Positions 41,261 through 55,841 are shown, counted from the first letter of the stretch. The stretch is 57,411 bases of DNA from Bacilli bacterium (GCA_017447305.1 JAFSNY010000006.1:1-57411), one strand, 5' to 3'. Notes: generated from the sequence alone by a model not told the origin. Made by a program: numbers and translations.

Positions 41261-42907
41261 ATGAATATTTCTAAAATGACTATTGATGAAATTATTGCTC
41301 TTCTTGATGGTGAATTGAAAGCAAGCTGCGGTATGGGTTTTGAATTTCGTTCTCATCAGATTGAAGCAATTAAAAATTATCTCAAAGCACACTATGGTTT
41401 GTTTAATATTACTTGTGGTGTAGGAAAGACATTAATACAGGCATGTATTATTTATCTTGAAATTTTACGTTGTAAAGAATTGGGTATTCCGTTTAAAGGA
41501 TTATTTGTATGTCATCGTCTCATGCTTGAAGACCAAATTAAAGCAGAATATACAAAGTTTTTTGGTGAATTTTTAAAAACAGCAAAGATTGCAATTCGTG
41601 TATTAAATACAACAGGTGATAATTCACTTGAAAATATTGCCCGTAATGATATGGCTATGCCAATGGGTGAAGATGTTTTGTATTTTACTACAACGGCAAG
41701 TTTAAACGATTATGTTAAAAATCATACAAATAAGCATAAAGATGGATATGTAGAAATTGCTACACATATTTTTAAAAATTTAAGTCTGTATATTCATGAT
41801 GAAGCCCATAAAGAAAGTTCTAACCTTATGGTTAAAACCGTTAAAGATGCAATGTCAAATGAAAATCAGCGTCATTTTTGGTTTACTGCTACTCCAGGCG
41901 AATATCTGACATGTAATTTACCGACTATTTCTGTATGCTCTTTTGCAGATGCTGTTGAAGCATATTATATTGTAAAACCGGTTTTGCATATTATTAAAGC
42001 ACCGGATTTTGAACATATGGATGTTAATGCTGAAGCAAATTCTGTAATCGCTGCATTTAAACATTTAAAACGAAATAAAAAGGGTGAAGTTCCATCTTTA
42101 ATTACATTTCACGATTCGGTTGATTCTGTTAGAAAAGTAGGTGATATTATTAATCAATTTAAAACACAGCATCCGAGATTTACTCCCACTGTTTATGAAA
42201 TTGTAAGTGATAAAACCATTATTGATGAAAATGGTGGTAAAGTTTGGCTTGCTGGTATTCGTTTAAATGGTTCTAGATATTCTGATGGTAAGTTGTATAC
42301 TAAGCAAGATATTTTGACTATTCTTCGTAATGATCATAATCCAAAAATTATTATGAATGCATTTATGTTAACAGAAGGTATAGATTTACCAGAAATTAAC
42401 GGCGTTCTTTTATTATGTCAAAAGTCTGATGCAAGTCTTTATCAGGCAATTTCTAGAGGTTGTAGAAAGACTGCAGGCAAAGTTAATTTTAATTTGTATG
42501 TTACATCTGAAGATGGTATTAGTGAACGAGTAGAAACATTTTTGGGTGAACTTGTCAAATTTACTGATGGAAAGTTTGATTTTGGTGGAACTATTGAAGA
42601 TATTAATAATGGTTCTAATGATGATGACGAAGATGCAGATTATCAAAATTCTGGTATTGCATTGCCAACAACAGCATTATATGAAAATGTAAAAATTTCG
42701 ATTGCTAAGAAAAGAACAGAATTTGATAAGATGAAAATTCGTATGGCGCAAGTTGCAGATTTTAATAGTAAGATCAAAGTTGCATCAATTATGAAAACAT
42801 TTCAGTTAATTCAAGAATATTCTGTTATTTGGAAAGATGAACCAGAACTAAAAGAAACATATCTCAATCAAAAGAAAATTTTTAGTTATTTGCCATCTTT
42901 TAATTAA
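41261..42907 (+). CDS. SF2 DEAH-box helicase (ResIII-like), cassette 1
   Basis: Motif I TCGVGKT, II IHDEAHK, III FTATPG, V GIDLPEINGV and VI QAISRGCRK. Own promoter 41179-41235. Confidence 0.8.
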   Translation: MNISKMTIDEIIALLDGELKASCGMGFEFRSHQIEAIKNYLKAHYGLFNITCGVGKTLIQACIIYLEILRCKELGIPFKGLFVCHRLMLEDQIKAEYTKFFGEFLKTAKIAIRVLNTTGDNSLENIARNDMAMPMGEDVLYFTTTASLNDYVKNHTNKHKDGYVEIATHIFKNLSLYIHDEAHKESSNLMVKTVKDAMSNENQRHFWFTATPGEYLTCNLPTISVCSFADAVEAYYIVKPVLHIIKAPDFEHMDVNAEANSVIAAFKHLKRNKKGEVPSLITFHDSVDSVRKVGDIINQFKTQHPRFTPTVYEIVSDKTIIDENGGKVWLAGIRLNGSRYSDGKLYTKQDILTILRNDHNPKIIMNAFMLTEGIDLPEINGVLLLCQKSDASLYQAISRGCRKTAGKVNFNLYVTSEDGISERVETFLGELVKFTDGKFDFGGTIEDINNGSNDDDEDADYQNSGIALPTTALYENVKISIAKKRTEFDKMKIRMAQVADFNSKIKVASIMKTFQLIQEYSVIWKDEPELKETYLNQKKIFSYLPSFN

Positions 42908-42916
42908 AAAAGATAA

Positions 42917-42972
42917 CTGAATCAGAATTAATTTAATATATGAGTTACAAAACTCATATATTTTACTATATT
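42917..42972 (+). promoter_or_regulatory. terminator-promoter module
   Basis: AACTGAATC..GTTACA-N17-TATATT. Hairpin ATATATGAGTT-acaaa-AACTCATATAT. Confidence 0.6.
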
Positions 42973-43002
42973 TAATAAGTAATTAAAAATGGAACTAAAT
43001 AA

Positions 43003-53727: not shown

Positions 53728-54948
53728 ATGAATGAAGAAAAAATTAAAAAATTATATCCTTTTCAATATTATACGTTTAAAAATGTTTCTGTAATTAAAC
53801 CATATTTGACTAAATATATGTTTAAAACAGAACATGAAAATGAATTATATATTGGTAATATTAATGGTCTTTTAACTATGGGTGAAATGTTGCCAATTAA
53901 AATGTTAAATTATTTTAAAGCAAATAAAAAAGCAACTTTTATTTTACCTGAAAATTATAAAGAAACAATTGACGGATTAAGTGGTTTTAGAGAGCAAATT
54001 TTAAAAATTATCAACTTCTTTTCCAAGCAAATTTCTATATTTACATATAAGGCTGATAATTCAGATATTATAAATAAAATAAAGGAAACTGATATGACGT
54101 TTGATGTTGCAATTATGAATCCACCTTATGATGGCTCTTTGCATTTAAAAATTTTAGAAGAAGTAATTAAACATTCTAATATTGTAACAAATATTAGTCC
54201 TATTCGTTGGTTGCAAGATCCAATTGTCGAATATAAAAAGAATTCTGATTATGCAAAATATGAAGAATCTATTTTAAAACATATGATTAATTTTATTGAA
54301 TTAGATCAAGCATATACTAATGATTGTTTTGGTATTCAATTTAATACTAAAATTGGAATATCTGTTTATGATAAAACTGGCGGATATGACTATAAAAAAA
54401 TACATGAATCTGAATTTAATGAAATTTATAAAAAATGCATGTCTAAAAAAGAAAGGATTACACCAAATATTAAATTATATAAAAATTTGAATTCTAAAAA
54501 TTTTGTTCCGGTTTGCCTTCTTGGTGGTCATGTAGATGTTAATGGATATGGAGTAAGATTTACACGTAATAGATATAAATATTTTATTGATGGTAAATGT
54601 CAAAATAGTGAACGCCCTGAATTATATAATAAAGAACCAAATGAAGTAAAATCATATAATTTAAAAACATTTGATACTGTTCCATGTGTTGAGTTTGATA
54701 CAGCTGAAGAAACAAAAAATTTTTATAATTATATAAATTCTATTTGTTTTCAATATTTAACTCGTGGTCATACACAAGATGGCAATATTTATCCAAAATT
54801 ATTACCATTTCCAATAGATTATACAAATAATTGGAATGATAAATTAGTATGTGAATATTTTAATATTACTGGATATATTGATAACGAACATGCTGTTCCT
54901 AATAGTGAATGGGAAATTATTTTAAATACAATGAAACCATTTCTTTAA
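53728..54948 (+). CDS. NPPY-motif methyltransferase-like protein, cassette 2
   Basis: FDVAIMNPPYDGSLHLKILEEV and C-terminal CEYFNITGYIDNEHAVPNSEWEIIL are near-identical to the 43003 gene. N-terminal 130 aa are unrelated and lack a G-loop. The ATG is 9 nt after TATATT. Confidence 0.7.
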   Translation: MNEEKIKKLYPFQYYTFKNVSVIKPYLTKYMFKTEHENELYIGNINGLLTMGEMLPIKMLNYFKANKKATFILPENYKETIDGLSGFREQILKIINFFSKQISIFTYKADNSDIINKIKETDMTFDVAIMNPPYDGSLHLKILEEVIKHSNIVTNISPIRWLQDPIVEYKKNSDYAKYEESILKHMINFIELDQAYTNDCFGIQFNTKIGISVYDKTGGYDYKKIHESEFNEIYKKCMSKKERITPNIKLYKNLNSKNFVPVCLLGGHVDVNGYGVRFTRNRYKYFIDGKCQNSERPELYNKEPNEVKSYNLKTFDTVPCVEFDTAEETKNFYNYINSICFQYLTRGHTQDGNIYPKLLPFPIDYTNNWNDKLVCEYFNITGYIDNEHAVPNSEWEIILNTMKPFL

Positions 54949-54956
54949 TAGGATAA

Positions 54957-55013
54957 CTGATTAAAAAATAATATAAAATAGTCATTGACAAGATGACTAT
55001 TTTTTTCTATATT
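54957..55013 (+). promoter_or_regulatory. terminator-promoter module (leaderless output)
   Basis: AACTGATTA..(28)..TTGACA-N17-TATATT. Hairpin AATAGTCAT-TGACAAG-ATGACTATT plus T7. Confidence 0.7.
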
Positions 55014-55841
55014 ATGAATATGGTAAATAAAGAACGACATATTAAATTTTATAAGTTATTTAAACTTAATGGCTGGAATGGTTTGCTCAATATTAATGGT
55101 GGAGCAATTACTCTTAGCGATTTCGTTAAACAAGATATATCTTGGGATAATGCTGTAGATAATATTTATTCAATCGATATGTGGAATACGTTCATTCAAA
55201 ATAAAGCTGAACAATTTGCAGAATGGGCAATTAAACAACCGTTAAATAACTTGGGCAAAAAGAAAGATTTAATTAATTGGTTTAAAGGTATTATTGGTGA
55301 ATATTTTTATGTGGAAAATGGTGAAGATTTGATGAAACAAACATGGGATGCTCTTGGCAAAAATTATGCTATTGAGCATATTGTTCCTGCCAGTTTTTAT
55401 AGATTAACACCTCATACAAGGGTCGAATTTGGCGAAGATTTCGGTGTTGATGCAATTGGAATTAATCGTTATGATTTAGTATCAGTAATCCAAATTAAGA
55501 CATGGAATATTTGGAGTAAAGAACTTATTACGTATGGTGATGTTATTACGAATTTATTCATGGATGGAATTTGTAGAGAATGGATTACAAAAGATCAAGA
55601 AGAGTCTATGTTTGTATTATGGTTAGGTCAGATTAAAAATATTGCAAAACCTTTGCAAAATCCAGCATGTCCGGCTTATAATAAAGTTCATTATTTTGGA
55701 TTTGATCAGTTGTCAGAAGTATTAGCTGGTTATGAACGTTTCTTTGCATTATCTAATAATTTTAAAATATCATTGAAAAATATCAAAAATTATACTATTA
55801 ATTGTGATAGTGAAATTTTGAGAAAAATTGATAGTTTATAA
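55014..55841 (+). CDS. PD-(D)-QxK nuclease-fold protein, cassette 2
   Basis: FGVDAIG..(14 aa)..IQIKTW. The track start lies in promoter 54957-55013. ATGs at 55014 and 55020 are 1 and 7 nt after TATATT. Confidence 0.55.
   Translation: MNMVNKERHIKFYKLFKLNGWNGLLNINGGAITLSDFVKQDISWDNAVDNIYSIDMWNTFIQNKAEQFAEWAIKQPLNNLGKKKDLINWFKGIIGEYFYVENGEDLMKQTWDALGKNYAIEHIVPASFYRLTPHTRVEFGEDFGVDAIGINRYDLVSVIQIKTWNIWSKELITYGDVITNLFMDGICREWITKDQEESMFVLWLGQIKNIAKPLQNPACPAYNKVHYFGFDQLSEVLAGYERFFALSNNFKISLKNIKNYTINCDSEILRKIDSL

What the first reader, a model, noticed from the sequence alone, without database searches (positions are those of the whole stretch)
41261..55841. Two paralogous three-gene cassettes: SF2 helicase, NPPY protein, PD-QxK nuclease-like protein, each gene with its own terminator-promoter module
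Cassette 1 comprises 41261-42907, 43003-44088 and 44154-44939. Cassette 2 comprises 51980-53665, 53728-54948 and 55014-55841. The gene order is the same in both.

- The helicases share all SF2 motifs.
- The NPPY proteins are near-identical around FDVAIMNPPYDG(N/S)LHLKILE and in the last ~40 residues, but differ in the middle (putative target-recognition part).
- The third genes share GVD..(13-14 aa)..IQ(V/I)K.
- Both cassettes are followed a few genes later by a YYIV.FDIDQRDADCI paralog (47171-47734 and 56613-57083), so a larger segment was duplicated.

Together the three functions are the components of a Type ISP/Type III-like ATP-dependent restriction-modification enzyme, split into separate genes. 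Two diverged copies on a lytic phage, two of whose genes are leaderless, could serve host-DNA attack, superinfection exclusion or DNA modification. This is inference.
Basis: partly seen in the sequence, partly recalled or inferred. Interest (0 to 1): 0.75.

Follow-up and report, generated by a model that had tools for sequence, protein, structure and literature searches.

The report
Swappable phage helicase–methylase–nuclease cassettes
A large lytic phage carries two versions of a three-gene module (DNA motor, methyltransferase-like protein with a highly variable middle, and a restriction-type nuclease) that travels as a unit between related phages and looks like a restriction-modification enzyme split into separate genes, probably used in conflicts over DNA.

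Summary
Both cassettes are real, and their gene linkage is far beyond chance. SF2 helicase, long NPPY protein and a ~260-aa third protein sit together in 22 non-redundant phage loci in six gene orders, including Prevotella megaphage Lak-B4.

- **Third genes:** they are remote homologues (hhalign 94%). They are Mrr-like PD-(D/E)xK proteins. E, D, Q and K are the only invariant columns across 49 diverse relatives.
- **NPPY proteins:** they have a Rossmann methyltransferase fold. Their conserved ends flank a hypervariable middle, with 15 module types in 102 proteins. That middle is replaced outright in a relative whose flanking genes are 97-99% identical.
- **Mobility:** a related phage carries a type-1 cassette exactly where this window has type-2, with breakpoints at the cassette edges.
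- **Distribution:** the family is essentially phage-only. It matches no PADLOC system and no cultured phage except unannotated Lak-B4.

That half-gene is a fourth member of the operon in distant relatives.

A split Type ISP/III-like restriction-modification module is the best reading. Activity is untested, and the "larger duplication" idea is not supported.

The parts
41167..41260 (+). Terminator-promoter module upstream of helicase 1 (-35 TTGACA at 41207, -10 TATATT at 41230-41235, 25-nt leader with AAAGGA)
   Evidence: It is 77% identical to the module upstream of helicase 2.
41261..42907 (+). Cassette 1 SF2 helicase-like ATPase (hel1, 548 aa): GVGKT 41417-41431, DEAH 41798-41809, TAT 41885-41893, motif VI 42443-42466
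   Evidence: Pfam ResIII 4e-16 and phrog_16. Motifs confirmed. It is 99% identical in L008 and 93% in L002. The best single-sequence PDB hits are LlaGI and LlaBIII at about 1e-4.
43003..44088 (+). Cassette 1 long NPPY methyltransferase-like protein (361 aa). N-terminal extension is aa 1-98. NPPY is at 43315-43326. The variable central module is about 43339-43942. The conserved C-terminal anchor is 43943-44088.
   Evidence: AF2 pLDDT 74.6. Foldseek hits class-I SAM methyltransferases from 2e-8. The central part has no DNA similarity to L008, while the flanks are 96-97% identical. 15 central-module types in 102 proteins.
44154..44939 (+). Cassette 1 Mrr-like PD-(D/E)xK protein (third1, 261 aa, leaderless): E105 at 44466-44468, D139 at 44568-44570, QVK at 44616-44624
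   Evidence: AF2 pLDDT 86. BFVD matches include 'Restriction endonuclease' at 3e-4 and an unnamed protein at 5e-5. The best PDB matches are PD-(D/E)xK proteins, all weak. Relatives hit Mrr_cat_2 at 2e-4. Invariant residues.
48091..48819 (+). Short NPPY protein (NPPY3, 242 aa). It starts at strand beta4/NPPY (48115-48126) and has no N-terminal half.
   Evidence: It matches phrog_11371 positions 2-81. It is 97.5% identical in L008.
50444..50902 (+). mt152: a 152-aa half-methyltransferase carrying only the SAM-binding motifs (X GEVFTP 50507-50524, I LEPTFGSGN 50594-50620, II YGVEL 50690-50704, III NFVCSDFFK 50804-50830); leaderless
   Evidence: Pfam N6_Mtase 1.6e-6. phrog_21201 and the C-terminal part of phrog_11371. 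Best PDB matches are M.BseCI, CamA and HsdM. It lies next to short NPPY genes, or is the fourth gene of the helicase operons, in relatives.
51980..53665 (+). Cassette 2 SF2 helicase-like ATPase (hel2, 561 aa): ATGKT 52061-52075, DESH 52490-52501, SAT 52655-52663, motif VI 53189-53212
   Evidence: Pfam ResIII, DEAD and Helicase_C. Homologues occur in L001, L017, L019 and in the distant clade.
53728..54948 (+). Cassette 2 long NPPY methyltransferase-like protein (406 aa): a type-2 N-terminal extension (aa 1-124, with ELYIGNINGL) and NPPY at 54118-54129
   Evidence: The L001 homologue has a type-2 N-terminus, but its central module is 61% identical to that of NPPY1.
55020..55841 (+). Cassette 2 Mrr-like PD-(D/E)xK protein (third2, 273 aa from ATG 55020, leaderless): E94 at 55299-55301, D144 at 55449-55451, QIK at 55491-55499
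   Evidence: E, D, Q and K are the only invariant columns across 49 relatives. hhalign against the third1 family gives 94%. Relatives hit Mrr_cat and Mrr_cat_2.
47171..47734 (+). YYIV...FDIDQRDADCI paralog 1 (187 aa); not shown to belong to the module
   Evidence: 48% identical to 56613-57083. Each copy is conserved at its own position in relatives.
56613..57083 (+). YYIV paralog 2 (156 aa); not shown to belong to the module

Best explanation
Each cassette encodes a multi-subunit, ATP-dependent, sequence-specific DNA-targeting machine. It is built like a Type ISP/Type III restriction-modification enzyme that has been split into separate genes.

Proposed roles:
- The long NPPY protein recognises a DNA sequence through its exchangeable central module. 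It probably N6-methylates adenine there.
- The SF2 ResIII-type ATPase is coupled to it, possibly through the cassette-type-specific N-terminal extension of the NPPY protein. It moves along DNA from unmodified sites.
- The Mrr-like E-D-QxK protein cuts.
- A shared 152-aa SAM-binding half-protein (mt152) is a fourth partner. It certainly pairs with the short NPPY proteins and possibly with the long ones.

All these genes sit behind early sigma-70-like promoters. The module would therefore act at once after infection on DNA that lacks the phage's own methylation, meaning the host chromosome and above all co-infecting related phages. Cassette swapping and exchange of the specificity module then change the target.

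Shown: domain identities, conserved linkage, mobility as a unit, hypervariability, conserved catalytic residues.

Inferred: complex formation, methylation, translocation, cleavage, and the biological target.
For: Linkage:
- Helicase, long NPPY and third gene are adjacent in 22 non-redundant loci. Nine further truncated contigs hold two of the three.
- They occur in six gene orders: H-N-T, H-x-N-T, N-H-T-m, H-T-N-m, T-H-N, and Hc-N-(N)-Hn-T with a split helicase.
- Prevotella phage Lak-B4 carries the operon too.

Unit mobility: L006 has a type-1 cassette between flanks that are 93% and 92% identical to window 51147-51983 and 55849-57145. That is exactly where the window has its type-2 cassette.

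Specificity-module turnover:
- Against L008, hel1 is 99% identical, third1 98.5%, and NPPY1 40.5%. There is no DNA similarity across 43339-43942.
- 102 proteins have 2 N-terminal clusters, 1 C-terminal cluster and 15 central clusters.
- Two conserved segments of about 100 bp flank the variable part.

Nuclease:
- E, D, Q and K are the only invariant columns in 49 sequences of 26% mean identity.
- AF2 gives a helix carrying E, a strand starting at D, and a strand carrying QVK.
- Structure matches are restriction endonucleases and PD-(D/E)xK proteins. Mrr_cat and Mrr_cat_2 are hit in both families.

ATPase: ResIII is above threshold, and the Walker A, DExH and motif VI residues are invariant.

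NPPY:
- The NPPY motif is invariant in 38 sequences.
- The fold is a class-I methyltransferase.

Co-variation: the N-terminal extension type follows the helicase and third-gene type even where central modules are swapped (L001).

Accessory, conflict-type distribution:
- No match in PADLOC, plasmids, or INPHARED by DNA or by NPPY tblastn.
- Only 4 short MAG contigs among 185,579 species genomes.

Early promoters stand before every gene.
Against: - No activity has been tested.
- Motif I of the cassette NPPY proteins is non-canonical (type 1: ILVVRDFYTA, no glycines), so SAM binding is uncertain.
- The NPPY family profile finds no solved methyltransferase by sequence.
- The Pfam Eco57I hits are below threshold (19 bits against 25.3).
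- The helicase's similarity to Type ISP enzymes is weak and disappears with a family profile.
- Foldseek PDB hits for third1 are individually non-significant (best E 0.027).
- Neither window third protein reaches any Pfam threshold.
- mt152 is not seen within the held flanks of some cassette loci (L001, L019, L004).
- Nothing shows that the three proteins bind one another.
Confidence: 0.55

Rival explanations
1. Self-protection (anti-restriction) machine. The helicase helps the NPPY methyltransferase scan and rapidly methylate phage DNA so that it escapes host restriction, in the manner proposed for the methyltransferase-helicase protein DarB of phage P1. The variable module would track the specificities of host restriction systems. 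The nuclease would have an auxiliary role.
For: - Short NPPY genes with mt152 occur alone, in 1-3 tandem copies, in other phages. That looks like plain multi-specificity orphan methylases.
- Turnover of the specificity module would also fit pressure from varied host restriction systems.
- Early promoters.
- DarB-type methylase-helicase anti-restriction proteins are documented in phages (papers listed, e.g. PMC5512222; own knowledge for P1 DarB).
Against: - The PD-QxK protein is linked as tightly as the helicase, and its catalytic residues are the only invariant ones. A pure methylation device needs no nuclease.
- Long NPPY proteins are never found without the nuclease where the contig extends far enough.
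Confidence: 0.15
2. Reader-directed nuclease without self-methylation. The cassette NPPY proteins would be catalytically dead methyltransferase folds that only recognise a sequence or a modified adenine. They would guide the helicase-nuclease to host DNA or rival DNA (Type IV-like logic). Real methylation in the phage would come only from NPPY3 with mt152.
For: - The motif I loop in type-1 proteins has no glycines.
- The extension has no hhalign similarity to the canonical SAM-binding half.
- A separate canonical SAM-binding half exists.
Against: - NPPY, and an acidic residue after strand beta2 (VTFVSDD / TFILPEN), are conserved in both types.
- mt152 is translationally coupled to long NPPY genes in the distant clade. 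That suggests the long proteins also use SAM.
Confidence: 0.12
3. Ordinary replication, recombination or repair genes (a helicase and a nuclease) that merely sit beside an unrelated methylase in a replication-gene neighbourhood.
For: - Relatives show clamp-loader, exonuclease, SbcCD and UvsY genes nearby.
- phrog_16 is annotated 'DNA helicase'.
Against: - Whole-cassette replacement between close relatives.
- Two non-orthologous versions in one genome.
- Absence from cultured relatives.
- The same three families stay linked in six gene orders.
- The hypervariable partner gene.
Confidence: 0.06
4. A selfish mobile cassette. The nuclease would cut cassette-free or differently methylated genomes in mixed infections, and the cassette would spread by repair, as homing elements do in T4-like phages, with little benefit to the phage. 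This overlaps with the best explanation in mechanism and differs in who benefits.
For: - Breakpoints lie exactly at the cassette edges within conserved promoter modules.
- The genome is rich in homing endonucleases.
- A clean insertion or deletion of a 197-aa ORF lies inside the cassette in relatives.
Against: - No homing-endonuclease family was detected in the cassette.
- The module is widespread and kept intact with conserved catalytic residues across very distant phages.
Confidence: 0.08

Closest known systems
[quoted passage not shown]
   Same: Same set of parts: an Mrr-family nuclease, an SF2 helicase-like ATPase, an adenine methyltransferase fold of the N6_Mtase/Eco57I kind, and a specificity module in the methylase chain (definition from PMC4666363). 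LlaGI and LlaBIII are the best single-sequence PDB hits of hel1.
   Different: - Type ISP is one polypeptide ordered nuclease-helicase-coupler-methylase-TRD. Here there are three or four separate genes, each with its own promoter, in other orders.
- Motif I in the NPPY protein is non-canonical, and the canonical SAM-binding half is a separate 152-aa protein.
- The variable module lies between conserved N- and C-terminal parts.
- The system is carried by phages, not by cells or plasmids.
- Sequence similarity is marginal.
Type III restriction-modification systems (EcoP15I, EcoP1I of phage P1)
   Same: - Res is an SF2 ResIII helicase followed by a PD-(D/E)xK nuclease. In the distant clade the helicase gene is directly followed by, and often overlaps, the nuclease gene.
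- The specificity region lies inside the methylase chain.
- There is a phage-borne precedent (P1; own knowledge and PMC2962900).
   Different: - Res is split into two genes here.
- The methylase matches Eco57I/N6_Mtase-type families, not the beta-class Mod family.
- A separate SAM-binding half is present.
Type I restriction-modification systems
   Same: ATP-dependent motor plus PD-(D/E)xK nuclease. The mt152 profile matches HsdM N-terminal parts. Specificity modules are exchanged by recombination between conserved segments, as in hsdS (own knowledge).
   Different: There is no separate S subunit. The R function is split into a helicase and a nuclease. No HsdR or HsdM family model is met.
Naturally split DNA methyltransferases (M.AquI, M.EcoHK31I)
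   Same: One methyltransferase fold is made from two polypeptides (PMC3404938). That parallels short NPPY plus mt152.
   Different: - Those are C5-cytosine enzymes split elsewhere. Here an amino-methyltransferase is split between motifs III and IV.
- One SAM-binding half appears to be shared by several catalytic/specificity halves (1-3 tandem NPPY genes per mt152).
P1 DarB-type methyltransferase-helicase anti-restriction proteins
   Same: A phage-encoded combination of an adenine methylase and an SF2 helicase acting in restriction conflicts (own knowledge).
   Different: DarB is one giant virion protein with no Mrr-like nuclease partner. No sequence relationship was found here.

Membership tests
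Type ISP restriction-modification enzyme | Single polypeptide carrying nuclease, helicase, coupler, methylase and TRD | tested here: not met
   There are three separate ORFs, each preceded by its own hairpin/-35/-10 module.
Type ISP restriction-modification enzyme | Mrr-family PD-(D/E)xK nuclease | tested here: met
   E...D...QxK is invariant. The AF2 topology and restriction-endonuclease structure matches agree. Mrr_cat and Mrr_cat_2 hits occur in relatives. The window proteins themselves are below Pfam thresholds.
Type ISP restriction-modification enzyme | SF2 helicase-like ATPase specifically related to the Type ISP motor | tested here: inconclusive
   SF2/ResIII is met. LlaGI and LlaBIII are the top PDB hits for hel1 at about 1e-4. 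They are not recovered with family profiles, and hel2 has none.
Type ISP restriction-modification enzyme | Active SAM-dependent N6-adenine methyltransferase | tested here: inconclusive
   NPPY is invariant and the model has a Rossmann fold. Motif I is non-canonical. The canonical SAM-binding motifs lie in the separate mt152 protein.
Type ISP restriction-modification enzyme | ATP-driven translocation and collision-dependent cleavage; protection by hemimethylation | not testable with these tools
   This needs biochemistry.
Type III restriction-modification system | Res subunit with helicase and C-terminal nuclease in one chain | tested here: not met
   Helicase and nuclease are separate genes. 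They are adjacent or overlapping only in the distant clade.
Type III restriction-modification system | Beta-class Mod methyltransferase | tested here: not met
   The only Pfam and PDB matches are Eco57I, N6_Mtase, M.BseCI, CamA and HsdM.
Type I restriction-modification system | Separate HsdS specificity subunit, with HsdR and HsdM family membership | tested here: not met
   No S gene is present, and the variable module lies within the NPPY protein. NCBIfam hits lie far below their cut-offs.
SF2 helicases, ResIII family (PF04851) | Score above the Pfam gathering threshold, with motifs I, II, III and VI | tested here: met
   hel1 scores 59.7 bits and hel2 28.3 bits against a cut-off of 22.5. Motifs located and invariant within the families.
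Class-I SAM-dependent methyltransferase fold (amino-methyltransferase, NPPY) | Seven-stranded Rossmann fold with motif IV (N/D)PP(Y/F) after strand 4 | tested here: met
   The AF2 model shows strands 1-7 with NPPY after strand 4. Foldseek gives 174 PDB matches at E<=0.001, the listed best ones all class-I SAM-dependent methyltransferase-fold proteins. Overall model confidence is moderate (pLDDT 74.6).
Known anti-phage defence systems in PADLOC-DB v2 | Match of the components to any system model | tested here: not met
   Only weak PbeA-type helicase hits were found, plus generic methylase hits for mt152. The NPPY and third proteins hit nothing.

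The most novel reading that the evidence does not exclude
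A plug-and-play, phage-borne restriction-like weapon. One 150-aa SAM-binding half-methyltransferase (mt152) would serve several interchangeable NPPY specificity subunits. The long forms would dock by a type-specific N-terminal coupler onto a split helicase-plus-Mrr-nuclease motor. Recombination between two short conserved anchors would let related phages re-target the system against each other's genomes. This would be an R-M architecture not described before, evolved for phage-versus-phage warfare and not for cell defence.
Probability: 0.25. Interest if true: 0.8.

Novelty: new variant of a known kind. Interest (0 to 1): 0.66.

Why it matters
- **A phage-side restriction system.** If the trios (with or without mt152) restrict DNA, this is a widespread, phage-restricted, multi-gene restriction-modification architecture. 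It has hundreds of metagenomic homologues, from ~200-kb myoviruses to Lak megaphages of gut and rumen Bacteroidota. It has escaped annotation: the NPPY and nuclease components have no Pfam family and match no PADLOC model.
- **A natural experiment in specificity change.** Identical scaffolds carry at least 15 different central modules. That offers a ready panel for mapping how sequence recognition is encoded.
- **A possible new enzyme organisation.** A methyltransferase whose SAM-binding half is a shared, separate subunit would be of use to enzyme engineers.
- **Ecology.** It points to DNA-level warfare between co-infecting gut phages.

Tried and rejected
- **Near-DNA search and NPPY tblastn against cultured phages:** no match. 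No annotated relative could therefore be used.
- **Narrow profile comparison of the two third-gene families:** no similarity. The link appeared only after the exhaustive representative search widened the third2 profile.
- **PDB sequence searches with third-gene and NPPY profiles:** nothing meaningful (the NMDA-receptor and FabG hits are noise).
- **LysM, amidase and Laminin_G proteins among the weak representative hits:** repeat artefacts.
- **Cyanophage helicases similar to hel1 (ACG-2014f, S-CAM7):** they stand alone with no methylase or nuclease nearby, so they are not the same module.
- **IMG/VR pattern scans with hel2 and the broad third2 alignment:** both failed.
- **Test of whether the N-terminal extension of long NPPY proteins is a diverged copy of the mt152 half:** no similarity. 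Type-1 and type-2 extensions are not similar to each other either.
- **The 197-aa ORF that relatives carry between hel1 and NPPY:** no Pfam or PHROG match.
- **The 'larger segmental duplication' idea:** rejected, because the flanking genes have no paralogs in the window.
- **Literature searches:** no description of this module was found.

Full report
**1. The observation**

All six ORFs lie where stated, on the + strand.

*Helicases.*
- Both exceed the Pfam ResIII threshold: 59.7 and 28.3 bits against 22.5.
- Both carry SF2 motifs I, II, III and VI: GVGKT/DEAH/TAT/QAISRGCR and ATGKT/DESH/SAT/QITGRVLR.
- They are barely alike: BLASTP 2e-4 over 43 residues. Family profiles give hhalign 63%, E 7e-5, over 69 columns.

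*NPPY proteins.*
- They are 29% identical (E 2e-33), with near-identity around the NPPY motif and in the last ~40 residues.
- At DNA level, cassette 1 and cassette 2 share four short stretches: about 100 bp at each of those two places, 74 bp of the helicase promoter, and a 79-bp stretch inside the NPPY genes.

*Third genes.*
- They share GVD-13/14-IQxK but give no BLASTP signal and no signal with narrow profiles.

*Other points.*
- The YYIV paralogs are 48% identical.
- Every cassette gene is preceded by a hairpin that contains a -35 TTGACA/TTTACA, followed by a T-run and a -10 TATATT.
- The T-run/-10 motif occurs 27 times against 6.1 expected.
- third1, third2 and mt152 have 6-7 nt between the -10 and the ATG, so they are leaderless.
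- third2 most likely starts at 55020, because its homologues begin MVNKERH.

**2. What the parts are**

*Third genes.*
- The third1 family (10 clusters) and third2 family (13 clusters) are small.
- An exhaustive search with the third2 profile found 58 representatives.
- In an alignment of 49 of them at 26% mean identity, the only invariant columns are E94, D144, Q158 and K160.
- This broad profile matches the third1 family at 94% probability, E 1e-7, over 158 columns. It pairs GE with ME, DfGVD with D.GVDGW, and QVKFW with QVKYR.
- The third1 AlphaFold model is confident (pLDDT 86, pTM 0.87). It puts E105 in a long helix, D139 at the start of a strand, and Q155-V-K157 in the next strand.
- Its best matches in BFVD are an unnamed 762-aa protein (5e-5), a cyanophage 'Restriction endonuclease' (3e-4) and several further Mrr or restriction endonucleases.
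- Its best PDB matches, all weak, are PD-(D/E)xK proteins: Cdn1, Can2, Bse634I, PfoI and AspBHI.
- Members of both families give sub-threshold Mrr_cat_2 or Mrr_cat hits. One remote relative passes the Mrr_cat threshold.
- I conclude that both third genes are Mrr-like PD-QxK proteins with an intact catalytic signature.

*NPPY proteins.*
- 603 relatives exist, almost all metagenomic and without a Pfam assignment.
- The NPPY1 model (pLDDT 74.6) shows a complete class-I Rossmann methyltransferase fold, with NPPY after strand 4.
- It matches 174 PDB chains at E<=0.001; the listed best matches are all class-I SAM-dependent methyltransferase folds.
- The N-terminal 98 residues are modelled as strands 1-3, but they lack a glycine-rich motif I: type 1 reads ILVVRDFYTA, and type 2 reads ELYIGNINGL.

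**3.

- 48091-48819 encodes a short NPPY protein that begins right at strand 4.
- 50444-50902 (mt152) encodes only motifs X, I, II and III in canonical form: GEVFTP, LEPTFGSGN, YGVEL and NFVCSDFFK.
- Its best solved relatives are the N-terminal parts of M.BseCI, CamA and HsdM.
- The two map to opposite halves of phrog_11371.
- In other phages, mt152 homologues lie directly beside one to three tandem short NPPY genes with no helicase or nuclease (L010-L012, L016, L021).
- This is a methyltransferase split between motifs III and IV, with one SAM-binding half apparently shared by several catalytic/specificity halves.
- Naturally split methyltransferases are known only for C5 enzymes, as far as I could find (PMC3404938).

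**4. Linkage in relatives**

- Across the loci fetched, helicase, long NPPY and third gene are adjacent in 22 non-redundant loci.
- Nine further truncated contigs hold two of the three.
- They occur in six gene orders:
  - H-N-T (window, L001, L019);
  - H-197aa-N-T (L002, L006, L008);
  - N-H-T-m (L017);
  - H-T-N-m (L027-L044);
  - T-H-N (L041);
  - Hc-N-(N)-Hn-T, with the helicase split into its two RecA halves (L004, L014).
- Long NPPY proteins are always beside a helicase where the contig allows. The one apparent exception, L015, is probably an over-extended ORF call.
- Short NPPY proteins go with mt152.
- In the distant clade the four genes form a tight operon, with overlaps or gaps of a few bases at some junctions.
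- The same operon lies unannotated in Prevotella megaphage Lak-B4, MK250023.1, at about 42854-47501.
- The extension type of the NPPY protein follows the helicase and third-gene type even where the central module has been exchanged. L001 has a type-2 N-terminus but a central module 61% identical to that of NPPY1.

**5. Mobility and hypervariability**

- *Against L008.* Window 40570-42891 is 96.6% identical. 42917-43338 is 74% identical. 43339-43942 has no similarity. 43943-45010 is 95.9% identical again. At protein level, hel1 is 99% identical, third1 98.5% and NPPY1 40.5%.
- *Against L006.* Window 51147-51983 is 93% identical and 55849-57145 is 92% identical. Between them L006 has a type-1 cassette where the window has type 2. 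The breakpoints are therefore the cassette edges, 51980 and 55841.
- *Module diversity.* Among 102 type-1-like NPPY proteins, the N-termini form 2 clusters, the C-termini 1 cluster and the central parts 15 clusters at 50% identity. Of the 2214 pairs with N-termini at least 90% identical, 67% have central parts below 30%.
- *What this argues for.* It is the signature of a specificity module under diversifying exchange and of an accessory, conflict-type cassette. It argues against a core replication role.
- *Duplication.* The flanking genes of the two cassettes have no paralogs in the window, so a single larger duplication is not supported.

**6. Distribution**

- No PADLOC system is matched.
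- There is no plasmid match.
- No cultured phage matches by DNA or by NPPY tblastn.
- Only four short MAG contigs among one genome for each of 185,579 species match, although the search patterns were strict.
- The host phage has a GroEL most like that of Bacteroides phages DAC19-23 (57%). It also has SbcCD, a ThyA with an HNH insert, and homing endonucleases.
- Relatives come from gut and rumen samples.

**7. Mechanism**

*Best reading (0.55).*
- Each cassette is a split Type ISP/Type III-like restriction-modification machine.
- The NPPY subunit reads, and probably methylates, a site through its exchangeable module.
- The ResIII ATPase translocates from unmodified sites.
- The Mrr-like subunit cuts.
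- mt152 is a fourth partner.
- Early promoters imply action at the start of infection.
- The pattern of swapping among close relatives points to competition between co-infecting phages or attack on host DNA.
- Shown: identities, linkage, unit mobility, hypervariability and conserved catalytic residues. Everything about activity is inferred.

*Rivals.*
- A DarB-like helicase-assisted self-methylation device (0.15). The obligatory nuclease with invariant catalytic residues argues against it.
- A dead-methylase reader guiding a nuclease (0.12).
- A selfish homing-like cassette (0.08).
- Replication or repair genes (0.06).

*Unresolved.* Either the N-terminal extension is a degenerate SAM-binding half of the protein itself (supported by the AF2 monomer), or it is a coupler, with mt152 supplying SAM binding in trans. 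The second reading is supported by operon structure, by the canonical motifs being found only in mt152, and by the lack of similarity between the extension and mt152.

**8. Comparison with known systems and novelty**

- The domain content equals Type ISP as defined in PMC4666363.
- The defining single-chain organisation is not met.
- Type III fails on the beta-class Mod and the fused Res.
- Type I fails on a separate S subunit.
- The module therefore works like these systems but is a member of none.
- I rate it a new variant of a known kind. It is a phage-restricted, three- or four-gene, modular version, with an unusual split of the methyltransferase.
- Interest is 0.66.

Noticed in passing
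window 48091-48819 and 50444-50902: A methyltransferase split between motifs III and IV. One gene is a short NPPY protein. The other is a separate 152-aa protein carrying only the canonical SAM-binding motifs. In other phages one such half sits beside 1-3 tandem NPPY genes, which suggests a shared SAM-binding subunit.
   Followed up: yes
window 48828-49334, 49313-49510, 49510-50397: Three consecutive genes lie between the two methylase halves. All end in the same C-terminal motif, F(T/S/N)(A/S)PEWT(E/D)(L/V)(K/E)L. None has a Pfam or PHROG match. They are conserved at 97% in L008.
   Followed up: partly
window 25282-26961: A thymidylate-synthase-like ORF of 559 aa carries an in-frame HNH-endonuclease-like segment at residues ~180-396. 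It could be an intein-like or a fused homing element.
   Followed up: no
window 14583-15491 (-) and 22827-23669 (+): Two homing-endonuclease-like ORFs. The second is wedged between the SbcC-like (20728-22488) and SbcD-like (23666-24703) genes.
   Followed up: no
window 12920-14536 (-): A phage-encoded GroEL chaperonin. Its closest cultured-phage relatives are Bacteroides phages DAC19-23 and SJC03 (57% identity).
   Followed up: partly
L002 7334-7927, L006 7339-7929, L008 6334-6927: Relatives carry a 196-197-aa ORF of unknown family between hel1 and the NPPY gene. It is cleanly absent from the window (95-nt intergenic region 42908-43002).
   Followed up: partly
L047 (Prevotella phage Lak-B4, MK250023.1, about 42854-47501, - strand): A published megaphage genome carries the four-gene operon helicase-PD-QxK-long NPPY-mt152. 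The record has no annotation.
   Followed up: partly
window 39626-57200, intergenic regions: The promoter is nested in the upstream gene's terminator hairpin: the -35 TTGACA lies inside the stem-loop, and the T-run abuts the -10 TATATT. The consensus is sigma-70-like and is not the Bacteroidota TTTG/TAnnTTTG type, although the nearest cultured relatives infect Bacteroides.
   Followed up: partly
window 38351-39625: A P-loop NTPase (phrog_1250; weak nSTAND3 and AAA hits) lies upstream of cassette 1. A 34%-identical relative lies downstream of the type-2 cassette in L001 (10662-12110).
   Followed up: no
window 55014-55022: The -10 TATATT ends at 55013 and abuts ATG 55014. Homologues start at the second ATG (55020, MVNKERH), so that is the likely leaderless start of third2. 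The longest ORF, from 54993, is unlikely.
   Followed up: yes
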